A stretch of 64,000 nt of DNA from NCBI GenBank assembly GCA_042577045.1, contig JBHPEK010000002.1, forward strand, positions 389 to 64,388. The letters run 5' to 3'. The position numbers and the translations under genes were made by a program. Source of the DNA: Patescibacteria group bacterium. Lineage in GTDB: Bacteria > Patescibacteriota > Minisyncoccia > JAHISW01 > Tagabacteraceae. Below, in pieces: positions 11,427-21,806 of this stretch. The notes below the pieces were generated by a model that was not told the origin of the DNA, did no database searches, and worked only from the letters and a program-made list of their open reading frames with translations. Position 1 is the first letter of the stretch, and each line of letters begins with the position of its first letter.

Positions 11427-12530
11427 ATGACAATTGCCGAAGATACAACCAGCAGACAAATGGATAGCGGAAGTAAGATATTACACCACGAAGATTGGTT
11501 GGAAAAATGGAAAAAAGATCCACTCTCGGTCTACCCTATTTATGTTGAAGCAACACCTGTAGGATATTGTAATCACCGTTGTGTTTTTTGCGCTTTTGAC
11601 TATATTGGGTACAAGAACATATCATTATCCGGTGATGTCTTAAAAAAAGTAGCAAAAGAAATGGCCGAAGGTGGAGTAAAAGCTATTCAATATGCCGGAG
11701 AGGGCGAGCCACTTCTTCACCCTGAAATAGCAGATATTATTCGCTATACCGCTGATCTAGGAATAGAGGTATCAATGCTTACCAATGGAGTCCTTCTTCG
11801 TGAAAAGTTTGTGAACAAAACAATTAAATCACTTTTGTGGTTTCAGGTGAGCTTAGATGCTGGCACAAAAGAAACCCATTCCAAAATCCATCAAACTTCG
11901 GAAAAAGATTTCGGTACAATTCTTAAGAATTTGTCTTATGCTGTCAAAGAGAGAAACAGACAAAAATCTTCTTGTGATATCGGTGTTCAATTTATTATAT
12001 TACCAGGCAACTTCAAAGAATTGGTAAGGGCTGTTGAAGTGATGAAAGAGACAGGTGTGGATTATATAACAATAAAACCATATTCACACCACTTGCTTAG
12101 CTTACACAGCAAAGAAGAGGTGCTTAAGGAAGGGTTTAATTATACAGACTTGCTGTATTTGGAAAATGATGTGAAAAAAATAGCTGGAACAGATTTGGCA
12201 GTAGATTTTAGAACTGCAGCTATGGACGAGATAGAAACAGAAAGAAACTATAACAGATGTTATGCCACCCCAACGGCCTGGGCGTATATCAGTGCCGATG
12301 GGTCGGTTTATAGTTGTAGCGCTTTTTTGGGAGATGATAGATTTAATGTGGGAAATATTAACGATAATTCCTTTAGCGAAATTTGGATGAGCGAGAAAAG
12401 AAAAAAACATCTGGAAATGATGAAAGGTTTTGACATAAACTCAAACTGTAGAAGGATTTGTAGGATGAATAGAACCAATAGAACTTTGTTTTCTTTGCGA
12501 AATCCACCTTCTAGAGTAAATTTTATCTGA
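11427..12530 (+). CDS. Radical SAM protein with a C-terminal SPASM/twitch Cys cluster. Paralog of 20739..21806.
   Basis: CNHRCVFC (CxxxCxxC). C-terminal Cys-rich region CYATPTAWAYISADGSVYSCSAF...CRRICR. The leader GAAAATAGAATAAGGAGG is shared with the 20739 gene. Confidence 0.7.
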   Translation: MTIAEDTTSRQMDSGSKILHHEDWLEKWKKDPLSVYPIYVEATPVGYCNHRCVFCAFDYIGYKNISLSGDVLKKVAKEMAEGGVKAIQYAGEGEPLLHPEIADIIRYTADLGIEVSMLTNGVLLREKFVNKTIKSLLWFQVSLDAGTKETHSKIHQTSEKDFGTILKNLSYAVKERNRQKSSCDIGVQFIILPGNFKELVRAVEVMKETGVDYITIKPYSHHLLSLHSKEEVLKEGFNYTDLLYLENDVKKIAGTDLAVDFRTAAMDEIETERNYNRCYATPTAWAYISADGSVYSCSAFLGDDRFNVGNINDNSFSEIWMSEKRKKHLEMMKGFDINSNCRRICRMNRTNRTLFSLRNPPSRVNFI

Positions 12531-13485: not shown

Positions 13486-15051
13486 TTAACGATTTTTGGG
13501 TGCAGGATATGTTATGTTTTTTTGCTTTCCTTTCATTATGGTTCTAAAAAACTCAATAAAAAGCCCTCTCACAAAATCTTTTAATCCTCTAATGGGATTT
13601 TTTATTTTAATGGGATAAATAAATTTTTTGAGGGTATATACTTTTACCAGATAAAAGAATATAAAAAAAACTGATTCAAAAAAACGTCCACGCCGGTAAA
13701 TGACGTGTTTTTTTATGAATGGAGCAAGCCAAGGTTGCCAAACAGCAAGTCCAGAAAGATAAAGAATATTTTTTTGGATATCTTTTTCTTTTTCAGAAAA
13801 GCAATTTAATGGGGATTTTCCCAGAATGGACTCACCAAAATCGTCTACTTCCATTTTGAAATATCCTTCATCTTCGCACTGTTTGCCAAGTTTAGTGCCG
13901 GGATAGGGTACTAGAATTGTTCGACTAGAAAACTTCACTCCTGCGGCAATTTCCAGATTAATAGTTTCTTCATCTGCCTTTATTATATCTTCAGTTTTTA
14001 TTGATCCTGTGGGTGGTAGCCCCAAAATCATATTATTAAAAACATTAATGCCATAATGTTTCAGTAATTTGAAATTTTCAACAACCATTTCATTAGAAAA
14101 ATTTTTGCCAATTACCTCTTTTCTTATTTGTTCACTTTCTGAGTCAATTGCAGTATTTACCGAAGTGCAACCTGCCTTTGATAAAAGTTTAGCCGTGTTT
14201 TCGTTAATAGAGTCTACTCGAAGCAAAACATTGAACGGGATACCAACTTTTTGAGGATATTTTTCAGCAAATTCCTCTAGCCAAGGGTCTTTTCCTCCCA
14301 CCACAAAAAGGTCGTCTTCAAATTTTATGAACTCAACTGGCCACCTTTTTTTGAGATCTAAAATTTCATCAATAACATGATCAACAGAATGTCTTCTTAC
14401 ATATTTTCCTAGTCCGCGATAGAGCTCCTTTAAAACAGTTTCAAAACAGTAAGAGCAATTAAATGGACAACCACGCGAGGTTATGAAAGTTTTTAGAGGG
14501 AAGTTGCCAATGCTTAAAGATTTTTCAAAAATGGTATCTCTGTCTGGGAATGGTAAAGAGTCAAGATCTGTAATCAACGGGCGGACGGGATTAGTTGGCC
14601 CATTTGGAAAGCCAAGATTAGCGATATTATAAAGATCTTCGGTTTTTGCCTCGCCGGCAAGTTTGTCTAAAAGTTCTGTGAATGCACCTTCTCCTTCGCC
14701 GATACATATTGCATCAATTGGTTGGTCTTTTACGCAGTTTGGATAAAAAGTAGGATGAGCCCCACCCATAATAGTAAATATATTTGGAAAATATTCTTTT
14801 ACTTTTTTGTTGAAAGAAAAATATTTTTGATGTGTGCCCGTAACAGCGCTATATGCGATAACATCCGGTTTGTAGTCTTCAATTTCTTTAAAAGGATTTT
14901 TGCTATTAGAAAGAATTAAAGCATTGCCATTGTGTCCAGCCTTTTTTGCTACGGCCAGAAGATAGGAAGGCCCCATTGGGTCTATAAAATCTTCGTTATC
15001 AATAATGAACAAAATCTTCAAGCCATTTTTTGAATATTCTTTTTCATGCAT
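13486..15051 (-). CDS. Cobalamin(B12)-binding radical SAM protein.
   Basis: B12-binding region (KPDVIAYSAVTG...IMGGAHPT). RGCPFNCSYC motif. Confidence 0.75.
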   Translation of the reverse strand: MHEKEYSKNGLKILFIIDNEDFIDPMGPSYLLAVAKKAGHNGNALILSNSKNPFKEIEDYKPDVIAYSAVTGTHQKYFSFNKKVKEYFPNIFTIMGGAHPTFYPNCVKDQPIDAICIGEGEGAFTELLDKLAGEAKTEDLYNIANLGFPNGPTNPVRPLITDLDSLPFPDRDTIFEKSLSIGNFPLKTFITSRGCPFNCSYCFETVLKELYRGLGKYVRRHSVDHVIDEILDLKKRWPVEFIKFEDDLFVVGGKDPWLEEFAEKYPQKVGIPFNVLLRVDSINENTAKLLSKAGCTSVNTAIDSESEQIRKEVIGKNFSNEMVVENFKLLKHYGINVFNNMILGLPPTGSIKTEDIIKADEETINLEIAAGVKFSSRTILVPYPGTKLGKQCEDEGYFKMEVDDFGESILGKSPLNCFSEKEKDIQKNILYLSGLAVWQPWLAPFIKKHVIYRRGRFFESVFFIFFYLVKVYTLKKFIYPIKIKNPIRGLKDFVRGLFIEFFRTIMKGKQKNITYPAPKNR

Positions 15052-15124
15052 TTCTTTAATATAGCGTAACTCGTTTCAAATGTAAATTTCTTTTATTTTT
15101 GTGTGTTGGAAGCTCGTTGTGTAT

Positions 15125-15332
15125 CTGTGGGAGATCCAATCTCCCACAGATGAAAATATGAGTTGAAAAACCCGCAAAATAGGGGTAGCATATGGGGGTT
15201 ATGGATAGTAGCTCCTAAACAGTGACAAGCCTTTAAAAAATGGAGGCCTTCATATCCTCCTTTGCCTTTTTCGTCTTGTCACTGTTTAGGGGTTGGTATT
15301 AAGTTTTGGCGCCTCCGCAGAGGCGCTTTTTG
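15125..15332 (+). ncRNA. Candidate structured non-coding element in a GC-rich intergenic region: three hairpins, the last a canonical intrinsic terminator.
   Basis: Hairpin 15125-15149 (CTGTGGGAGAT/ATCTCCCACAG). A 16-bp inverted repeat 15214-15229/15275-15290 (CCTAAACAGTGACAAG) encloses an inner GGAGG/CCTCC stem. Hairpin GCGCCTC-CGCA-GAGGCGC plus TTTTT lies at 15308-15332. Confidence 0.25.
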
Positions 15333-15370
15333 GTTGTCAAAAGGGTTAAAATGGAGGTAGAATTAGGGGT

Positions 15371-16747
15371 ATGAAAAACTTGTGGATTTTATCAGAAGAG
15401 AGGCCCAAACATGAAGTTGTAAAAACAATAATTAAAAAATTTACTTCAGACAAAAGAGTTTCATGTAAAATTAAAGATTTAAAAATTTTACCACTTGTGT
15501 CAGATGGATGTTTCTTGTTTAAGTATGAAGTAACTGGGTTTAAATGTAAGAAAATAGAAAAAATTTTTATAAAATTGGCAAGTGGTGAATCAAGTTTTGT
15601 TGATTTCTTGCTTTTTTACCAAAAACAAGAACCAAGGGATGATTCCGTTCCCAGTTATGCCATAGAAGAAACAAAAACAAGTGACACAGAATCTCGCAAT
15701 ACTGGTGTTTATCAGCGGTGTAGCAAGTTTGTTTTTATTGATTATTATTATCCGAAAATTAAGAAGATAATGTTGCATAATAGTTTATTGCAAAAAAACA
15801 AGAAGCCAACAGAAACCAATATATTTGGTACACGAATGCTACTCACAGACAGGGTAGAAATTATGGGTAGGAAAGTTGATAAAAACACAAAAATCTTTAA
15901 AAATCTTGAAGAGTTAATTCAAGCAAAGAACGCAATGAAAGCTCCCTTCTACGGCTTGCCTATACGTATTAAAAAACAAAAGAACAAAATTTTTATTTCT
16001 GGAAGACTTTACAAATCGAGTGGTATTAATCATGATCCAAATATCGGTGCATTAACCATGATAGCACAAAACATACGCAAGTGGGACAAAAAAAGTAAAA
16101 TTATTATTACTGACCATGGGTTGAAACAAGAGCATGTTGGAAAGAGAAATAAATTTATTCTTATTGCCAATCGATTGAATATTAAATTAGAAGGACTAAC
16201 TATTCCTAAAACAAAAGAACATAAATCATACTGGCATTATGAGACCAAGCAAGAAAAAATCGGCACGATCTTTGTTCATATGAGTATCTTGGCATTTACT
16301 AAGGGGAAAATTATTTACGAAAACCATGGCGGTTGTGAACGAGGATATTTTGTTGGTAAGTCAAATTTGGTTGCTGTCAAAAAATATCAAGACGGTAAAA
16401 GAAGAGATTACAAAAGCGGGAACAAAACAGCAATTATCTATCTTCCCGATATTGTGGTTTGGGATCCGGTAAGGGAGGAAGTTGTTAATGCAGAGGGAAA
16501 AACATATTTGAAAAGGAAAAATGGAATAAAAGAGTTATCTAATTATAATTATTTCGAAAAGAATCTTATAAAGCCAGAGTATAATCCTAAAAGTATAAAA
16601 AGAATCGTTATTACTTTTGGCGGAAAAAAGAACAAAATTCGCGAGAAAAAAATAGGTTTTCATCTCAACGAAAACGGAGGAATTATTATAGGAAAAAATA
16701 CTCCTAAAATTATCACTGAGGCAGTAAATAAACTATTGTCTGCTTAA
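15371..16747 (+). CDS. Hypothetical 458-aa protein, convergent with two Dam-family methyltransferases. Speculative restriction-endonuclease candidate.
   Basis: No recognisable family motif. A possible D-x10-E-T-K (PD-ExK-like) stretch lies at RDDSVPSYAIEETK. Call rests on gene context only. Confidence 0.2.
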   Translation: MKNLWILSEERPKHEVVKTIIKKFTSDKRVSCKIKDLKILPLVSDGCFLFKYEVTGFKCKKIEKIFIKLASGESSFVDFLLFYQKQEPRDDSVPSYAIEETKTSDTESRNTGVYQRCSKFVFIDYYYPKIKKIMLHNSLLQKNKKPTETNIFGTRMLLTDRVEIMGRKVDKNTKIFKNLEELIQAKNAMKAPFYGLPIRIKKQKNKIFISGRLYKSSGINHDPNIGALTMIAQNIRKWDKKSKIIITDHGLKQEHVGKRNKFILIANRLNIKLEGLTIPKTKEHKSYWHYETKQEKIGTIFVHMSILAFTKGKIIYENHGGCERGYFVGKSNLVAVKKYQDGKRRDYKSGNKTAIIYLPDIVVWDPVREEVVNAEGKTYLKRKNGIKELSNYNYFEKNLIKPEYNPKSIKRIVITFGGKKNKIREKKIGFHLNENGGIIIGKNTPKIITEAVNKLLSA

Positions 16748-17794
16748 TAAATATAATTGTTCTCGTATGCGCTTTTTGTGTTGCGAGTCTCCGTTACTAT
16801 TACTTTTGAATCTTAAATAATCAATCTCTTTTAATTTTACATCGCCGTATTTTTTAAGAGTTTTCATTATTTCTTTTTGGGGCATAATTCCTTCAGAATT
16901 ATAGCTTAGCACTAAAGTTTTATATTTTGCCGAGAGAGCTATTTTATCAAGCGCTTCTATTGCTGTTTTTACATTACAAAACTCTGATTTTTGATGACTA
17001 TAATTACGCATTCCAGTCACGCCTTTAATTTCTGGGTTGTCATATTTTGCAACAGTTTCTAGTAGATGATAATTACCTCCATACTGCCTGCTGTTATACG
17101 GAGGGTCGATATACAAAACATCTGTTTCTAAATTATCCAAAAGATGCATGCTGTCTTGGTTATATACCCAGTGTTTTTTGTTTCCTGCATAAATCTTTAT
17201 TGGTTTTAGTTCAAATTTCTTTGTTGCGCGGGGATCATAATTTTTAAGGAAGGCGGCATAAACACCAGAAATATTTGCATAAAACGGCACACTTTCTACC
17301 AACATTGCCAGTAATACAAAATATTCATTTTTACTTATCAATTTTTGTTCGTTCCATTTTTCTATTTGTATTCTTATTGCATCAATTTTTTTTCCATTAT
17401 TACCTGTAAAATATTTTCTTGGATATTCTTGTTTGTTTGTTCCTTCAGGTGTGTAATTTTTATAAATAAAACCACTAACTCCTTTGAGGCTATTTAAATA
17501 TTCTCGCATTTTATCCAATGGAGAAATGAAAAGAGTGGTTCGCGGAATAGTGATTGTTTTTGAAAGTTTTGAAAAGTCAGGTTCCTTGTTGTTTTTTATA
17601 TAAGCTTTTTGAAGGACATAAGAAAAATAAAGTACATCGGAAGAAATAACCTGAAATCCTTTCTCTTTAAAATACCTGCCTACATTACTGGTGCCAGAAA
17701 AAAAATCACAAAATACACCATCTTTTATTTCTGTGGAACAGATAACTTCGTAAATATTCTCTAACAGTTTTTCTTTATTGCCTATAAAACGCAT
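16733..17794 (-). CDS. N6-adenine DNA methyltransferase, D12 class (T4 Dam-like, alpha group).
   Basis: N-terminal FIGNKEKLL and FCDFFSGTSNVG (motif I), then LYIDPPYN (motif IV) about 190 aa later. Confidence 0.75.
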   Translation of the reverse strand: MRFIGNKEKLLENIYEVICSTEIKDGVFCDFFSGTSNVGRYFKEKGFQVISSDVLYFSYVLQKAYIKNNKEPDFSKLSKTITIPRTTLFISPLDKMREYLNSLKGVSGFIYKNYTPEGTNKQEYPRKYFTGNNGKKIDAIRIQIEKWNEQKLISKNEYFVLLAMLVESVPFYANISGVYAAFLKNYDPRATKKFELKPIKIYAGNKKHWVYNQDSMHLLDNLETDVLYIDPPYNSRQYGGNYHLLETVAKYDNPEIKGVTGMRNYSHQKSEFCNVKTAIEALDKIALSAKYKTLVLSYNSEGIMPQKEIMKTLKKYGDVKLKEIDYLRFKSNSNGDSQHKKRIREQLYLLSRQ

Positions 17795-17795
17795 T

Positions 17796-19304
17796 TTAGT
17801 AATTCATTATCAATACCTCGCTTACTTTACCTCTTTTGTCAGCTTTACAGTTGAGCGATCTGTTGGATTCTACTTTTTCAATTTTATAATCCTTATAAAG
17901 AGTATTTATAAATTTGCAGTTGGAATTAGAAAGCATTATTTTTACTCCTTTTTTAGTAAGTTTGTTTATTAAGGTCTTTAAGCGTTCCTGATCCTCTTTA
18001 AAAAATTTTTCTTTTGTATATCGAGTAAAATTAGAATATTCCGAAATTGGATGATAGGGCGGATCAAGATAAACAAAATCGTCCTTTTTGGCTCCCTGAA
18101 GTGTTTTTTCAAAATCATCACATTTTATATCAGCCTCTTTAAGAATTTTGCTATCAGCTTTTATTGTTCCTTCGTCGCATATTAATCGATTTAAAGAACT
18201 ACCGATTGGAACATTGAATTGACTTTTTTTATTAACGCGATAAACACCATTAAACCCTGCTTGATTTAAATAAATCATGCGAGCAGCAATCTCTGCACTG
18301 TTTAATTCGTTGAAAATATTTATCTCGCGATCGAGTACACGAATTTTCATATATAATTCTTTTGAATGACGCTTTTTTAATTCTTTCAATAATTTAATTA
18401 CTTCTTCTGGATTGTCTCTAATTCCTTCGCAGGTCTTAATAAGTTCTAAGTTATTATCGTTGAGAACGGCCTTGTTTGGTTTTAAGTAAAAATACATTGC
18501 TCCGCCTCCCAAAAAGGGTTCATAAAAAGTATTGAATTTTGTGGGGAGAAATTTTTTGTATTGAGAAATCATTCCCCGTTTTCCTCCAACCCATTGAAGA
18601 AATGGCTTAATTTCTTTTTTTGTATCACTGGTTATTCTTCTCGCATGACTTGTGTAAGGGAATCGATAAATAATGTCTGCGAGTATTTCGATTTCATCTT
18701 TTTTAATTTCGAGGTTTCTAATTATGTTTATTACCACACCTCTTATTTCCACATCGGTTCTAAAGAAGGGGAGCATGGCTTGATTCATTGGCTGGAGTCT
18801 GATTCTGTCTTTTTCTTTGTATATTTTTTTTAGCGTTGCTTGGTTGTTGTCAATAATGGCCACAACTGTCTGGCCGTTATCTGCAGTTTTTTGTTCTTTA
18901 ATTACGACTGTGTCTCCGTCAAAAATTCCTTCTTCAATCATACTATCGCCCTTAACGCGTAGAGCGTAATGCTTACCCGAAGCGCTTAAGGTATTTTTTG
19001 CTACAGATATTGTTTCGCCAGGAATTTCTATGGCTTCTATTGGTTCACCAGCCGAGATGGTTCCAAGTAGTGGAATTTCTAGGATTGTTTTTGTTTCCAT
19101 TAGTTCAATAGATCGGGCGTGGCCTTTATTTTGTTTGATGTAGCCCTTTGTATCCAAAGCAGAAAGATGTTGGTGGACTGTTGGTTTTGATAACTTAAAC
19201 TTTTTTCCTGTTTCCTCGAGAGTAGGAGAGAATCCATTCTTTTCCTGAAAAGATTTTATGAAGTCTAGAACATTTTTTTGCTTCTTGGTAAGTGGTGTTG
19301 TCAT
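17796..19304 (-). CDS. Fusion protein: LexA-like repressor (winged HTH plus S24 peptidase) N-terminal to an E. coli Dam-like N6-adenine methyltransferase.
   Basis: N-terminal part: KQKNVLDFIKSFQEKNGFSPTLEE...SKPTVHQHL (LexA DNA-binding domain), then LLGTISAGEPIEA...RVKGDSMIEEGIFDGDTVVI and ATLKKI (S24 Ser/Lys dyad). C-terminal part: FLQWVGGKRG, EPFLGGGA, LNQAGFNGVYRVN...FNVPIG and YLDPPY, which align with E. coli Dam. Confidence 0.7.
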   Translation of the reverse strand: MTTPLTKKQKNVLDFIKSFQEKNGFSPTLEETGKKFKLSKPTVHQHLSALDTKGYIKQNKGHARSIELMETKTILEIPLLGTISAGEPIEAIEIPGETISVAKNTLSASGKHYALRVKGDSMIEEGIFDGDTVVIKEQKTADNGQTVVAIIDNNQATLKKIYKEKDRIRLQPMNQAMLPFFRTDVEIRGVVINIIRNLEIKKDEIEILADIIYRFPYTSHARRITSDTKKEIKPFLQWVGGKRGMISQYKKFLPTKFNTFYEPFLGGGAMYFYLKPNKAVLNDNNLELIKTCEGIRDNPEEVIKLLKELKKRHSKELYMKIRVLDREINIFNELNSAEIAARMIYLNQAGFNGVYRVNKKSQFNVPIGSSLNRLICDEGTIKADSKILKEADIKCDDFEKTLQGAKKDDFVYLDPPYHPISEYSNFTRYTKEKFFKEDQERLKTLINKLTKKGVKIMLSNSNCKFINTLYKDYKIEKVESNRSLNCKADKRGKVSEVLIMNY

Positions 19305-19456
19305 TTATATTTTTTATCCGCAATGGCATTTGTGGATTTTTGTTTTTATACTATAATTATATCAGATACCTAACAAAATACGAATTTAGAATGTGGGGAT
19401 AAGTATTTAGGTTCGGGTCGATGGTATAAATTATTATTAATTAACAGTAAAAAAAG

Positions 19457-19744
19457 ATGAAAGTAGTTAACATAAACAACACTAGCGACAACACCTGTAG
19501 TTGCGGTAGTTGGCTTGAGCACTGGAAGGATTTTAGTAATCAATCCCTTCCAAGTTGTTGTCCAGAAAAGAGTTGTCCCAACAAGCCTGATGTAGGAGCT
19601 CATGTGCAAAAGGATAGTGTCAATGACAATAATTGGTACATTGTTCCACTTTGCAAAGATTGTAACGCAAAAGCTGGGGGTTCGTTAGAAATTGGAGATG
19701 ATATTGCCTTGGTGGCTGCCAGTGTAAATGAAACTTGTGGTTAA
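19457..19744 (+). CDS. Small Cys-rich hypothetical protein (possible Zn-binding).
   Basis: Contains CSCGSWLEHW...CCPEKSC...PLCKDCN. It is divergent from the LexA-Dam gene. Confidence 0.3.
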   Translation: MKVVNINNTSDNTCSCGSWLEHWKDFSNQSLPSCCPEKSCPNKPDVGAHVQKDSVNDNNWYIVPLCKDCNAKAGGSLEIGDDIALVAASVNETCG

Positions 19745-19864
19745 AGACTGGTTCTTGGAAAACGGATTTTAGTAGATAGAGCTTGAAAGTTCGATGTGTG
19801 TTCAGAGCGGAAGTTTGCACAGAATTGCATACATTGATGGCGATCGAAAAATCCACCTTCTAAT

Positions 19865-19890
19865 AAAAACCACCCTGCGAGGTGGTTTTT
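19865..19890. terminator. Intrinsic terminator (ACCACC-ctgcga-GGTGGT flanked by A/T runs).
   Basis: AAAAACCACCCTGCGAGGTGGTTTTT. Confidence 0.5.
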
Positions 19891-19990
19891 ATGCTAAAAT
19901 AAACCCATGAATTACATATACATACTAATTGCTGGGGGTTTTGGGGTTTATGATTGTAAAGAGAACTAATTTATAGTAGCATTTAGTAAA

Positions 19991-20738: not shown

Positions 20739-21806
20739 ATGAATTTACAGTTATCAGGCAACAAATTACTTTATCACCTTGACGCTTTAAGGAAGTGGCA
20801 AGAAGGTCGGGATTTTTATCCCCTAAATTTAGAGATTGGTCCCACTTCGGCTTGTAATGTTAGGTGTGTTCATTGTTACGTTCAACATCTAGAGCACAAA
20901 CGAGTATATTTACCAGATGATGCTTATCTGAATTTGATTACGGATATTATCACAGCAAAGATTAAAGCGATTGTTTTTTGTGGAACTGGTGAACCTCTTT
21001 TGCACAAGAAAACACCCGAAGCAATAGTTTTGGCTGAACAGGGTGGCATTGATGTTGGCATGATAACAAATGGAACATTGCTTACACCTAGTGTTGCCAA
21101 ACAAATTTTGCCCAAAATGACATGGATGCGTTTCAGCATTTTAGGGATAAAAGAGGAGACATATAATAAGCTTCATGGAATAAAAGGAAAAATATGGGAA
21201 AGGTTATATTCTAATCTGGAAGAAGCTTCTCGCTTGAAAAGAGAGAATGGGTATAAAGTTACTTTCGGCGTTTCCTGTGCTTTAATGCCAGAAAATGGGC
21301 ACGAGATTCATCTAATGGCAAAAAAATTTAGTGATTTAGGTTTTGATTATTTTGTGATTAGACCCGTTGGGCAAGATATGGCACATGCCATAGTTGCAGA
21401 TACGGATCTTTCCAAAAGGTTTGAAAAGGAATTGGAAATGGCTGAAAATTATTCTTCAGACACCTTTAAAGTTGTTGTTAGAAGAGAACTATTTGGTTAT
21501 GAAGAGGATCAGGAAACCAAAAGACATTATGAAAAGTGTTTAGCTCTGCCATTTCTTGCTTGCGTTGATGCCGATGGTTCTTTGTACACCTGCAATGGTC
21601 GTTGGGGGGAAGAAGATTATACTTACGGCAATATTAATCAGAAATCTTTTTTAGATATCTGGAATTCACCCGAACATAAGAAAAAAATGAAGAACTTAAT
21701 GGCTACAACAGATGTTAAAACATGCGGGATTGTATGTCGCCAGAATAGTATGAATGAATTACTCCAGCAAATTTCCGATATTCCCGACCATGTGAATTTC
21801 CTATGA
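20739..21806 (+). CDS. Radical SAM protein with a SPASM/twitch C-terminal domain. Paralog of 11427..12530.
   Basis: CNVRCVHC motif. C-terminal CLALPFLACVDADGSLYTCNG...CGIVCRQ. The stop overlaps the next start. Confidence 0.7.
   Translation: MNLQLSGNKLLYHLDALRKWQEGRDFYPLNLEIGPTSACNVRCVHCYVQHLEHKRVYLPDDAYLNLITDIITAKIKAIVFCGTGEPLLHKKTPEAIVLAEQGGIDVGMITNGTLLTPSVAKQILPKMTWMRFSILGIKEETYNKLHGIKGKIWERLYSNLEEASRLKRENGYKVTFGVSCALMPENGHEIHLMAKKFSDLGFDYFVIRPVGQDMAHAIVADTDLSKRFEKELEMAENYSSDTFKVVVRRELFGYEEDQETKRHYEKCLALPFLACVDADGSLYTCNGRWGEEDYTYGNINQKSFLDIWNSPEHKKKMKNLMATTDVKTCGIVCRQNSMNELLQQISDIPDHVNFL

What the first reader, a model, noticed from the sequence alone, without database searches (positions are those of the whole stretch)
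15371..19890. Two Dam-family methyltransferases plus an unknown convergent 458-aa protein and a small Cys-rich protein form an island inside the glycan locus
The four-gene module sits between a B12 radical SAM gene and a GT2 gene, flanked on both sides by unusually GC-rich, hairpin-dense non-coding DNA. One methyltransferase is T4-Dam-like and the other is E. coli-Dam-like. Paired N6A methyltransferases occur in DpnII/MboI-type and type IIS restriction-modification systems, where the restriction gene is adjacent. The convergent 458-aa ORF has no recognisable family and is the obvious candidate for the nuclease or effector (a weak D-x10-ExK stretch at RDDSVPSYAIEETK). Alternatively the whole module is an uncharacterised defence or epigenetic cassette acquired horizontally.
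Basis: partly seen in the sequence, partly recalled or inferred. Interest (0 to 1): 0.7.

Follow-up and report, generated by a model that had tools for sequence, protein, structure and literature searches.

The report
Restriction system with LexA-fused methyltransferase
This is a mobile restriction-modification cassette of a known type (a BtsCI/BsmI-like cutter plus two adenine methyltransferases), with one unusual part: one methyltransferase is fused to a complete LexA DNA-damage repressor, which may tie the cell's self-protection to its DNA-damage alarm.

Summary

The two D12 methyltransferases correspond to the two halves of a 646-position fused type II methyltransferase profile, the architecture of the fused M.FokI/M.BtsCI enzymes.

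The Ala-Gly cleavage site and the Ser/Lys dyad are invariant in 38 relatives. A direct-repeat operator (TTTCK-N6-TTTCK) sits in the fusion's promoter in 20 of 24 non-redundant Patescibacteria loci. The window's own copy is degenerate.

The R-M1-(LexA-M2) cassette moves as a unit between genomic contexts. The hairpin-rich flank and the Cys-rich gene are not part of it.

The likely mechanism is a self-repressed methyltransferase operon that DNA damage can switch on. This is inferred, not shown. The restriction system is ordinary; the LexA fusion looks like a new variant.

The parts
15371..16747 (+). R: restriction endonuclease of the BsmI/BtsCI group, a monomer with two PD-(D/E)xK-type active sites. 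N-terminal site: E9, E10, D78, E99, Q115, R116. C-terminal site: E295, P359-D360, E375, K377.
16733..17794 (-). M1: D12-class N6-adenine DNA methyltransferase (DPPY at aa 230). It is the constant methyltransferase partner of R across phyla and corresponds to the N-terminal half of fused two-domain type IIS methyltransferases.
   Evidence: PF02086 matches at 6e-38. PADLOC MTase_II PDLC03287 positions 1-337 of 646 score 327 bits. A relative was detected next to R in 69 of the 83 loci fetched with an R relative (L001-L006, L012-L091 less three duplicate-contig loci); most of the rest are cut by a contig end. L124 carries a fused M1-M2 relative of 680 aa.
17796..19304 (-). LexA-M2 fusion (502 aa): LexA winged-helix DNA-binding domain, S24 autoprotease and a Dam-family methyltransferase. 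Its stop codon lies 1 nt from the M1 start, so the two form an operon.
   Evidence: Pfam and NCBIfam results. The reading frame is intact and stop-free in 38 independent loci. At least 57 clusters at 90% identity have the same architecture.
19113..19304 (-). LexA DNA-binding domain (aa 1-64). It is the most divergent part: 41% identity to the nearest relative, against 89% for the methyltransferase part.
   Evidence: PF01726 matches at 8.6e-16. Nucleotide similarity to L171 ends at 19081.
18729..19073 (-). S24 peptidase domain. The Ala85-Gly86 cleavage site is at 19047-19052, Ser121 at 18942-18944 and Lys159 at 18828-18830.
   Evidence: PF00717 matches at 1.8e-29. A85, G86, S121 and K159 are invariant in 38 fusion proteins. 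Codons were verified.
17799..18665 (-). Dam-family (DpnM-like) methyltransferase domain (aa 214-502; DPPY at 414). In relatives the same core occurs bare or fused to an HTH_31 domain at the same junction.
   Evidence: TIGR00571 scores 263.5 bits. DpnM 2dpm scores 246 bits. The junction is shown by alignment A5.
19356..19385 (-). Promoter and operator region of lexA-M2: an extended -10 (TGATATAAT, 19356-19364) preceded by ATTCGTATTTTGTTAGGTAT (19366-19385). The latter is a degenerate positional homologue of the TTTCK-N6-TTTCK direct-repeat operator.
   Evidence: The motif is present in 20 of 24 non-redundant relatives, against 0.08 expected. The window element is unique in the window. Sequence verified.
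19457..19744 (+). Neighbouring gene, not part of the cassette: a 95-aa Cys/His-rich protein of unknown function from a conserved family of about 409 proteins.
15100..15345 (+). Host-side structured non-coding region, not part of the cassette: three strong hairpins, the last being an intrinsic-terminator-like hairpin at 15308-15327.
   Evidence: (z -7.1). No Rfam match. Not repeated in the window. Absent from L171.
19863..19892 (.). Perfect 12-bp hairpin with A/T runs on both sides. It is a terminator-like element after the Cys-rich gene.

Best explanation
Region 15371 to about 19390 is a mobile cassette of about 4 kb that encodes a Type IIS restriction-modification system.

R (458 aa) is a compact member of the BsmI/Mva1269I/BsrI/BtsCI group. 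In that group one polypeptide carries two different PD-(D/E)xK-type active sites, each nicking one strand next to an asymmetric site. M1 and M2 are two strand-specific m6A methyltransferases. They are equivalent to the two halves of a fused two-domain methyltransferase such as M.FokI or M.BtsCI.

M2 is fused to a complete LexA. The LexA domain most likely binds a direct-repeat operator in the lexA-M2-M1 promoter and represses the methyltransferase operon. This is the known 'methyltransferase with an N-terminal DNA-binding domain' control mode. On RecA activation by DNA damage, including self-restriction, the protein would cleave itself at Ala85-Gly86, release repression and raise methylation.

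Shown here: the gene identities, the fold, the catalytic motifs, the fusion, conservation of the cleavage residues, the operator in relatives, and cassette mobility.

Inferred: DNA binding, autocleavage, direction of regulation, and the recognition sequence (possibly GGATG, as for BtsCI).
For: Nuclease:
- PADLOC REase_II matches at 2.5e-51.
- D78, E99, R116 and D360 are invariant. E9, E10, Q115, E295, P359 and E375 are at least 90% conserved in 58 homologues of 23-64% identity.
- These fit the published motifs PD-Xn-E-Xn-QR and PD-Xn-EX(K/E) (PMC11889245; PMC2831314).
- Landmark spacings are 7/17/244/15 here and 7/17/243/15 in BtsCI (D121, E128, R145, D388, E403).
- The family shows the same EXK/EXE dimorphism at position 377 (K 34, E 23).
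- PMC2831314 describes 463- and 472-aa BtsCI homologues that sit next to two separate methyltransferases.

Methyltransferases:
- M1 and M2 map to positions 1-337 and 356-641 of one 646-position profile.
- L124 carries a fused 680-aa relative.

Linkage and mobility:
- R relatives occur in 333 GTDB species, and the loci examined keep M1 plus a second methyltransferase next to R.
- Homologous modules lie on plasmids and in prophages.
- Cassette-only similarity between L013 and L092 is 92.6% over 4239 nt.

LexA:
- It scores above the NCBIfam equivalog cut-off.
- A85, G86, S121 and K159 are invariant in 38 fusions.
- All 38 sampled loci are in frame.
- The operator is present in 20 of 24 promoters, against 0.08 expected and a maximum of 3 in 2000 shuffles.
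- Bare and HTH_31-fused versions of the same methyltransferase share the junction.
- Self-repression by methyltransferases through an N-terminal HTH is established (PMC3874152).
- Direct-repeat LexA boxes are known (PMC8565304; PMC7739468).
Against: - The window's own operator is degenerate (ATTCG-N6-GTTAG). Its DNA-binding domain is the most divergent of the set and has a one-residue deletion just before the predicted recognition helix.
- No operator was found upstream of R, so coordinated control of R is not explained.
- There is no detectable sequence similarity to BsmI, and Foldseek found nothing significant. The BtsCI sequence could not be aligned directly.
- GGATG is not significantly avoided in the window: 65 observed against 78.7 expected.
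- The M2 domain is closest to the GATC enzyme DpnM, so the specificity is open.
- Nothing here shows DNA binding, cleavage, methylation or restriction.
Confidence: 0.7

Rival explanations
1. The LexA-M2 fusion is the cell's main or only SOS repressor. On this reading a restriction-modification system became welded to the resident lexA gene, so the whole SOS regulon and the R-M system are coupled, and losing the cassette would mean losing LexA.
For: The LexA part passes the NCBIfam equivalog cut-off, and PGAP names the protein 'transcriptional repressor LexA'. No second LexA lies in the 64-kb window. A citing paper groups the Patescibacteria LexA box with direct-repeat motifs (PMC7739468), which is the structure found here. 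A second, unrelated methyltransferase class (N6_N4) is fused to LexA behind the same promoter cassette in L049.
Against: LexA travels with R and M1 as one cassette between unrelated contexts. L013 and L092 are 92.6% identical inside the cassette and not similar outside it. No operator was seen before other genes in the roughly 276 kb sampled. The DNA-binding domain evolves much faster than the rest, which is unlike a master regulator with a large regulon.
Confidence: 0.2
2. The fusion is a suicide switch. RecA-triggered autocleavage destabilises or inactivates M2. Methylation then lapses and R kills the damaged or infected cell, behaving like an abortive-infection or toxin-antitoxin system.
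For: The cleavage machinery is conserved. R-M systems are known to behave as toxin-antitoxin modules, and unbalanced R-M activity induces SOS (PMC3874152).
Against: Cleavage at Ala85-Gly86 would leave the S24-methyltransferase part intact. It also removes the repressor domain, which predicts more methyltransferase synthesis, not less. M1 is untouched. Relatives use a plain HTH, or nothing, at the same junction, which points to a regulatory DNA-binding role.
Confidence: 0.08
3. It is a DpnII/MboI-like GATC system with two Dam-type methyltransferases, one of the two alternatives (with type IIS systems) that the first reader proposed.
For: M2's closest solved relative is DpnM, at 246 bits. GATC is mildly under-represented: 141 observed against 170 expected.
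Against: R has no similarity to the DpnII or MboI families. Instead it has the BsmI fold and both BsmI/BtsCI motifs. The second methyltransferase is D12-class, not DpnA-like. The Lys that contacts the first G in Dam is Gln here, a comparison from memory only.
Confidence: 0.07
4. The fusion is an assembly or gene-calling artefact, with separate lexA and dam genes joined by an error.
For: None beyond the rarity of the architecture.
Against: The frame is intact with no stop codon in 38 loci from many samples and assemblers. At least 57 protein clusters share the architecture. The linker is conserved (T218, R223).
Confidence: 0.01

Closest known systems
BtsCI and its 463- and 472-aa homologues Cup_ORF1489 and Nfl_ORF1032 (Type IIS, GGATG 2/0; PMC2831314)
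   Same: The size is about 460 aa. Two active sites lie in one chain, an N-terminal ...E-X15-QR site and a C-terminal PD-X14-EX(K/E) site. Landmark spacing is the same (7/17/244/15 here, 7/17/243/15 in BtsCI). The gene is accompanied by two separate D12 methyltransferases that correspond to the halves of M.BtsCI/M.FokI.
   Different: The Asp equivalent to BtsCI D121 is Ser in this protein and varies across the family; the invariant Asp is D78. The recognition sequence is untested. One methyltransferase carries a LexA fusion.
BsmI (GAATGC 1/-1; PDB 9ezd, PMC11889245)
   Different: Identity is 11% and there is no detectable sequence match. This protein has 458 aa against 667 for BsmI, so much of the central and recognition part is missing or reduced.
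Methyltransferases that repress their own promoters through an N-terminal helix-turn-helix domain (the class reviewed in PMC3874152; the examples M.SsoII, M.EcoRII, M.MspI and M.ScrFIA are recalled from memory)
   Same: A DNA-binding domain sits at the N-terminus of the methyltransferase, and an operator lies in its own promoter. Close relatives of M2 carry a plain HTH_31 domain at the same junction.
   Different: Here the DNA-binding module is a whole LexA with an intact autoprotease, which adds a possible DNA-damage input.
LexA (SOS repressor; TIGR00498)
   Same: It has the winged-helix DNA-binding domain, the S24 domain, the Ala-Gly site and the Ser/Lys dyad. A box lies in its own promoter, and direct-repeat boxes are known in other phyla.
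   Different: It carries a 290-aa methyltransferase at its C-terminus. It travels inside an R-M cassette. No regulon beyond its own operon was seen.

Membership tests
Type II restriction-modification system | An endonuclease with a nuclease fold and catalytic motif | tested here: met
Type II restriction-modification system | Adjacent DNA methyltransferase(s) with SAM-binding and DPPY catalytic motifs | tested here: met
Type II restriction-modification system | Linkage of the R and M genes conserved across unrelated genomes and mobile elements | tested here: met
Type II restriction-modification system | Site-specific cleavage that the cognate methylation blocks | not testable with these tools
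   This needs biochemistry or methylome data.
BsmI/Mva1269I/BsrI/BtsCI group (two-active-site Type IIS REases) | N-terminal bottom-strand site: (P/S)D-Xn-E-Xn-QR | tested here: met
   D78, E99 and R116 are invariant; Q115 is in 57 of 58.
BsmI/Mva1269I/BsrI/BtsCI group (two-active-site Type IIS REases) | C-terminal top-strand site: PD-Xn-EX(K/E) | tested here: met
   P359-D360-X14-E375-G-K377. Position 377 is K in 34 and E in 23 of 58.
BsmI/Mva1269I/BsrI/BtsCI group (two-active-site Type IIS REases) | Fold similarity to a solved member | tested here: met
BsmI/Mva1269I/BsrI/BtsCI group (two-active-site Type IIS REases) | Detectable sequence similarity to a characterised member | tested here: inconclusive
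   There is no PDB sequence hit to BsmI. The PADLOC REase_II profile matches strongly, but its seed enzymes are not named.
BsmI/Mva1269I/BsrI/BtsCI group (two-active-site Type IIS REases) | A monomer that nicks the two strands in sequence next to an asymmetric site (GGATG for BtsCI) | not testable with these tools
   GGATG avoidance in the window is not significant.
FokI/BtsCI-type two-domain m6A methyltransferase (here split into two genes) | Two D12 domains that match the two halves of a fused methyltransferase | tested here: met
   PDLC03287 positions 1-337 match M1 and 356-641 match M2. L124 has a fused relative of 680 aa.
LexA | LexA winged-helix domain plus S24 peptidase, scoring above the NCBIfam equivalog cut-off | tested here: met
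   182.5 bits against a cut-off of 110.95.
LexA | Ala-Gly cleavage site and Ser/Lys catalytic dyad | tested here: met
   A85-G86, S121 and K159 are invariant in 38 sequences. Codons were checked.
LexA | A binding site in its own promoter (autoregulation) | tested here: inconclusive
   A clear motif is present in 20 of 24 relatives. In the window only a degenerate positional homologue is found.
LexA | RecA-stimulated self-cleavage and control of an SOS regulon | not testable with these tools
   This needs whole genomes and experiments.
   There is no DpnII-family Pfam match, and the fold is BsmI-like.
   M2 is DpnM-like, but M1 is D12-class, not N6_N4.

The most novel reading that the evidence does not exclude
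LexA-methyltransferase fusions would be a natural device that makes a Type II restriction-modification system sense DNA damage. Self-restriction or other damage would activate RecA. The fusion would then cut off its own DNA-binding domain, the methyltransferase operon would be derepressed, and methylation would catch up. That would be a 'restriction alleviation' circuit for Type II systems. The fusion has arisen or spread repeatedly in Patescibacteria, with at least two unrelated methyltransferase classes (D12 here, N6_N4 in L049) and also as a stand-alone LexA-like controller (L068).
Probability: 0.4. Interest if true: 0.75.

Novelty: new variant of a known kind. Interest (0 to 1): 0.55.

Why it matters
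The restriction system itself is routine, although databases still annotate its nuclease family as 'hypothetical protein'. That family could be labelled as BtsCI/BsmI-like. It may also offer compact enzymes that can be engineered into nickases.

The LexA fusion matters more. Known R-M control uses C proteins, HTH-bearing methyltransferases, promoter methylation or antisense RNA (PMC3874152). None of these has a built-in damage sensor. A methyltransferase carrying an intact autocleaving LexA, with a conserved operator, would link genome self-protection directly to the SOS signal. It would also give a testable answer to how a cell avoids killing itself when methylation falls behind.

The finding also bears on how LexA domains and their operators diversify, since here the DNA-binding domain evolves much faster than the rest of the protein. 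I found no paper describing such fusions in the held library. That library is incomplete, and the one directly relevant paper (Sanchez-Osuna et al. 2017, Environ Microbiol) could not be read.

Tried and rejected
- Pfam and NCBIfam gave nothing above cut-off for the 458-aa protein; the only hit was a weak RE_Alw26IDE match of 19.7 bits.
- A profile search of PDB sequences found nothing. Foldseek against the PDB found nothing significant. The afdb50 library was unavailable.
- The hairpin flank is not a repeat, a transposon end or a known RNA. It is unique in the window, has no Rfam hit and is absent from relatives.
- Composition-based evidence of foreign origin was not significant.
- Site-avoidance analysis to guess the recognition sequence was uninformative.
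- The canonical operator occurs elsewhere in the window only at chance level: 4 found against 2.3 expected.
- I could not test whether the genome holds a second lexA.
Full report
**What is there.**
The window comes from a Patescibacteria (CPR) contig; the exact proteins are in NCBI under locus tags ACFLZC_00520 and ACFLZC_00535.
- R, 15371-16747 (+), 458 aa.
- M1, 16733-17794 (-), 353 aa.
- A 502-aa gene, 17796-19304 (-).
- A 95-aa Cys-rich gene, 19457-19744 (+).

R and M1 converge, and their 3' ends overlap by 15 nt. The 502-aa gene stops 1 nt before the M1 start, so the two form an operon. The flanking genes are a B12-binding radical SAM enzyme and a GT2 glycosyltransferase, within a run of radical-SAM/SPASM, aldo-keto reductase and cytidylyltransferase-kinase genes.

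**The 458-aa protein is a restriction endonuclease of the BsmI/BtsCI group.**
- Pfam and NCBIfam give nothing above threshold. The REBASE-derived PADLOC model REase_II PDLC03445 matches at E 2.5e-51.
- The family is large. There are 2216 hits among the scored candidates, mostly 461-465 aa, and relatives in 333 GTDB species. These span Patescibacteria, Bacteroidota, Alphaproteobacteria, Treponema, Poribacteria and archaea. Wherever a source gives a name, it is 'hypothetical protein'.
- An AlphaFold model built on 58 diverse homologues is very confident (pLDDT 95.2, pTM 0.93).
- BsmI is a monomeric Type IIS enzyme with two different active sites (PMC11889245). The N-terminal site is 90-PD-X17-E-X12-QR-123, with Asp9 also binding metal. 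The C-terminal site is 527-PD-X17-E-X-K-548, with Glu470.
- The family alignment shows the same two sites. The first is E9/E10 (57 of 58), D78 (58 of 58), E99 (58 of 58), Q115 (57 of 58) and R116 (58 of 58). The second is E295 (57 of 58), P359 (54 of 58), D360 (58 of 58), E375 (57 of 58) and position 377 (K in 34, E in 23).
- The BtsCI paper (PMC2831314) places BtsCI (GGATG 2/0) in this group. Mutagenesis there validated D121, E128 and R145 in one site and D388, E403 and E405 in the other.
- The spacings D121-E128-R145-D388-E403 are 7, 17, 243 and 15. The corresponding positions here (92, 99, 116, 360, 375) give 7, 17, 244 and 15.
- The same paper reports 463- and 472-aa BtsCI homologues in Campylobacter upsaliensis and Neisseria flavescens. 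Each sits next to two separate methyltransferases that match the N- and C-terminal halves of M.BtsCI. It also notes that the C-terminal motif is EXE in BtsCI but EXK in those homologues, which is the dimorphism seen in this family.
However, D90/D91 are not conserved. The BtsCI D121 equivalent is Ser92 here and is Asp in only 25 of 58 sequences.

**The two methyltransferases are the two halves of a fused two-domain methyltransferase of the M.FokI/M.BtsCI kind.**
- Both are D12-class with DPPY.
- M1 matches positions 1-337 of the 646-position PADLOC profile PDLC03287 (327 bits). The M2 catalytic domain matches positions 356-641 of the same profile (70 bits), and other profiles more strongly.
- One relative (L124) has the two fused in a 680-aa protein.
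- A relative of M1 (42-70% identity) was detected beside R in 69 of the 83 loci fetched with an R relative (L001-L006, L012-L091 less three duplicate-contig loci); most of the rest are cut by a contig end. The second methyltransferase varies. It can be this DpnM-like clade, a distant D12 enzyme, or an N6_N4 enzyme. That is what one expects if each enzyme protects one strand of an asymmetric site.
- M2's closest solved relative is DpnM (246 bits), with E. coli Dam at 108 bits. M1 has no PDB sequence relative. The labels 'T4-Dam-like' and 'E. coli-Dam-like' are therefore not supported as stated.

**The missed feature is a LexA-methyltransferase fusion.**
- Residues 3-64 of the 502-aa protein are a LexA DNA-binding domain and residues 78-192 an S24 peptidase. 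Together they score 182.5 bits on the NCBIfam LexA equivalog model, whose cut-off is 110.95. Residues 232-501 are the Dam-family domain.
- This is not an artefact. At least 57 clusters at 90% identity have the same three Pfam domains. In 38 fetched loci the frame is continuous and free of stop codons.
- In an alignment of 38 fusions (56-77% identity to the window protein), four positions are invariant: the cleavage site Ala85-Gly86, the nucleophile Ser121 (GDSM) and the general base Lys159 (TLKK).
- The methyltransferase core starts at a conserved P-x-T-x-N-x-x-R...KPFLQWVGGKR stretch. Bare relatives start exactly there, and others carry an HTH_31 domain of about 75 aa at the same junction. 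Among the sampled loci of this clade there are 35 LexA-sized, 9 HTH-sized and 6 bare versions; the sample is redundant.
- The N-terminal module is therefore an exchangeable DNA-binding regulator, as in the known self-repressing methyltransferases (PMC3874152).

**The operator.**
- Aligning the upstream regions of 24 non-redundant fusion genes shows a direct repeat, TTTC(G/T)-N6-TTTC(G/T). The extended form is ACTTTCKATTTATTTTCKAT, with an 11-bp period.
- It lies within 110 bp of the start codon in 20 of the 24. Shuffles give a mean of 0.08 loci and a maximum of 3 in 2000 trials. The background rate in these loci is 0.016 per 130 bp.
- It sits either over the -35/spacer region just upstream of a TATAAT box, or inverted between the -10 box and the start codon. 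It was not found upstream of R.
- Direct-repeat LexA boxes are known in Alphaproteobacteria (PMC8565304). PMC7739468 cites the Patescibacteria study among the cases of direct-repeat LexA motifs. I could not read that study.
- In the window, the homologous position (19366-19385, minus strand, next to the extended -10 TGATATAAT) reads ATTCGTATTTTGTTAGGTAT. This keeps the 11-bp period but has degenerate half-sites.
- The window's DNA-binding domain is also the odd one out. It has a one-residue deletion before the presumed recognition helix. It is only 41% identical to the nearest relative, against 70% for the S24 domain and 89% for the methyltransferase. Nucleotide similarity to that relative (L171, 84%) runs from the R start codon to 19081 and stops inside LexA. 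Either the DNA-binding domain and its promoter were swapped as a unit, or they evolve fast together.

**Mobility and what does not belong.**
- The gene order R-> <-M1 <-LexA-M2 recurs in all Patescibacteria loci that carry the fusion, but the neighbouring genes differ.
- L013 and L092 are 92.6% identical over 4239 nt, from about 209 nt upstream of R to about 69 nt upstream of the fusion gene, and are not similar beyond that. LexA therefore travels with the restriction system.
- Related R+M+M modules lie on 7.6-13.6-kb plasmids (Bartonella, Psychrobacter) and in Streptococcus prophages.
- The left hairpin-rich stretch (15100-15345) has three strong hairpins, an RNA fold z of -7.1 and GC of 44.7%. 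It is real but unique in the window, has no Rfam match and is absent from the nearest relative. It belongs to the host side.
- The right side has one terminator hairpin. Composition does not single the module out.
- The Cys-rich protein belongs to a well-conserved family of about 409 proteins with invariant Cys and His residues. In other genomes it lies in an integrase/type III R-M island or alone. Other cassettes have unrelated genes in its place. Its model (pLDDT 82.6) has no significant fold match. Its function remains unknown.

**Mechanism.**
- Shown: the system is a Type IIS-class R-M cassette, and one of its methyltransferases carries an intact-looking LexA together with a conserved promoter element.
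- Inferred, and in my view most likely: LexA-M2 dimers bind the direct repeat and repress the lexA-M2-M1 operon. RecA filaments, formed after damage that could include cuts by R at unmethylated sites, stimulate cleavage at Ala85-Gly86. Repression is lifted and methyltransferase levels rise. This would give a negative feedback loop that protects the chromosome.
- Alternatives, weighed in the rival list: the fusion is the cell's only LexA (a captured master regulator), or cleavage inactivates M2 and triggers suicide.
- The recognition sequence is unknown. GGATG is a reasonable guess from the BtsCI parallel. M2's closeness to DpnM and the lack of site avoidance leave the question open.

**Related variants seen.**
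- L049 has LexA fused to an N6_N4-class methyltransferase (454 aa), followed by an HNH nuclease. It lies behind the same kind of promoter, with a box one mismatch from consensus.
- L068 has a stand-alone LexA-like gene (30% identical) directly upstream of a fused D12+N6_N4 methyltransferase and an R homologue. Its operator is a different, palindromic one.
- LexA-type control of restriction systems therefore seems to recur in Patescibacteria.

**Verdict.**
The island is a known kind of restriction-modification system, and its nuclease can now be named. The LexA-methyltransferase fusion is, as far as I could find in the held library, undescribed. It is best classed as a new variant of methyltransferase-mediated R-M control.

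Noticed in passing
Upstream of lexA-methyltransferase genes in L092, L113, L115, L171, L049 and L068; window 19316-19337 and about 19400: A DnaA-box-like sequence, TGTGGATAA, accompanies the operator. It is exact in 6 of 26 upstream regions and within one mismatch in 16 of 26 (shuffles give 0.04 and 1.3). In the window, a variant (TGCGGATAA) and ATCCACAAA form a hairpin in the 5' UTR. Its role is unknown.
   Followed up: partly
window 15100-15370: This structured non-coding stretch has a 13-bp perfect hairpin at 15123-15151, 25-nt arms at 15205-15229 and 15275-15299, and a terminator-like hairpin at 15308-15327. A promoter-like TTGTCA-18-TAGAAT follows, ending 7 nt before the R start codon. 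That suggests either a leaderless R mRNA or an attenuator-type leader. There is no Rfam match.
   Followed up: partly
L049 4733-6718: A second kind of fusion: LexA (DNA-binding plus S24 domains) joined to an N6_N4-class methyltransferase (454 aa), followed by an HNH endonuclease (203 aa). It lies 2.4 kb from an R homologue on the same contig.
   Followed up: partly
L068 3475-7380: A stand-alone LexA-like gene (204 aa, 30% identical) lies directly upstream of a 628-aa fused D12+N6_N4 methyltransferase and an R homologue. The palindrome CCCGACCA-TT-TGGTCGGG sits between its -35 and -10 boxes.
   Followed up: partly
L124 1150-3192: A 680-aa protein with two D12 domains, M1-like then M2-like. This is the fused, FokI/BtsCI-like form of the window's two methyltransferases.
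   Followed up: partly
window 19457-19744; L007-L011: The 95-aa Cys-rich protein has invariant C14, C16, H22, C35, C40, H49, C66 and C94, which probably bind zinc. In L007-L010 it recurs in an integrase-bearing island next to HNH_5 and type III R-M genes. It has no fold match.
   Followed up: partly
whole window: GCAGC (28 observed, 57.9 expected) and CCAGG (33 observed, 61.5 expected) are the most under-represented 5-mers. This may reflect other restriction systems acting on this genome.
   Followed up: no
L013, L014, L015: These three MAG contigs are labelled Nealsonbacteria, Nomurabacteria and Saccharibacteria. They are 87-95% identical and syntenic over about 10 kb, so at least some of the taxonomic labels are unreliable.
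   Followed up: no
window 11427-12530, 13486-15051, 20739-21806: The surrounding 'glycan' locus holds three radical SAM enzymes, two with SPASM domains and one B12-binding. It also holds an aldo-keto reductase and a cytidylyltransferase-PfkB fusion, which is an unusual set for sugar modification.
   Followed up: no
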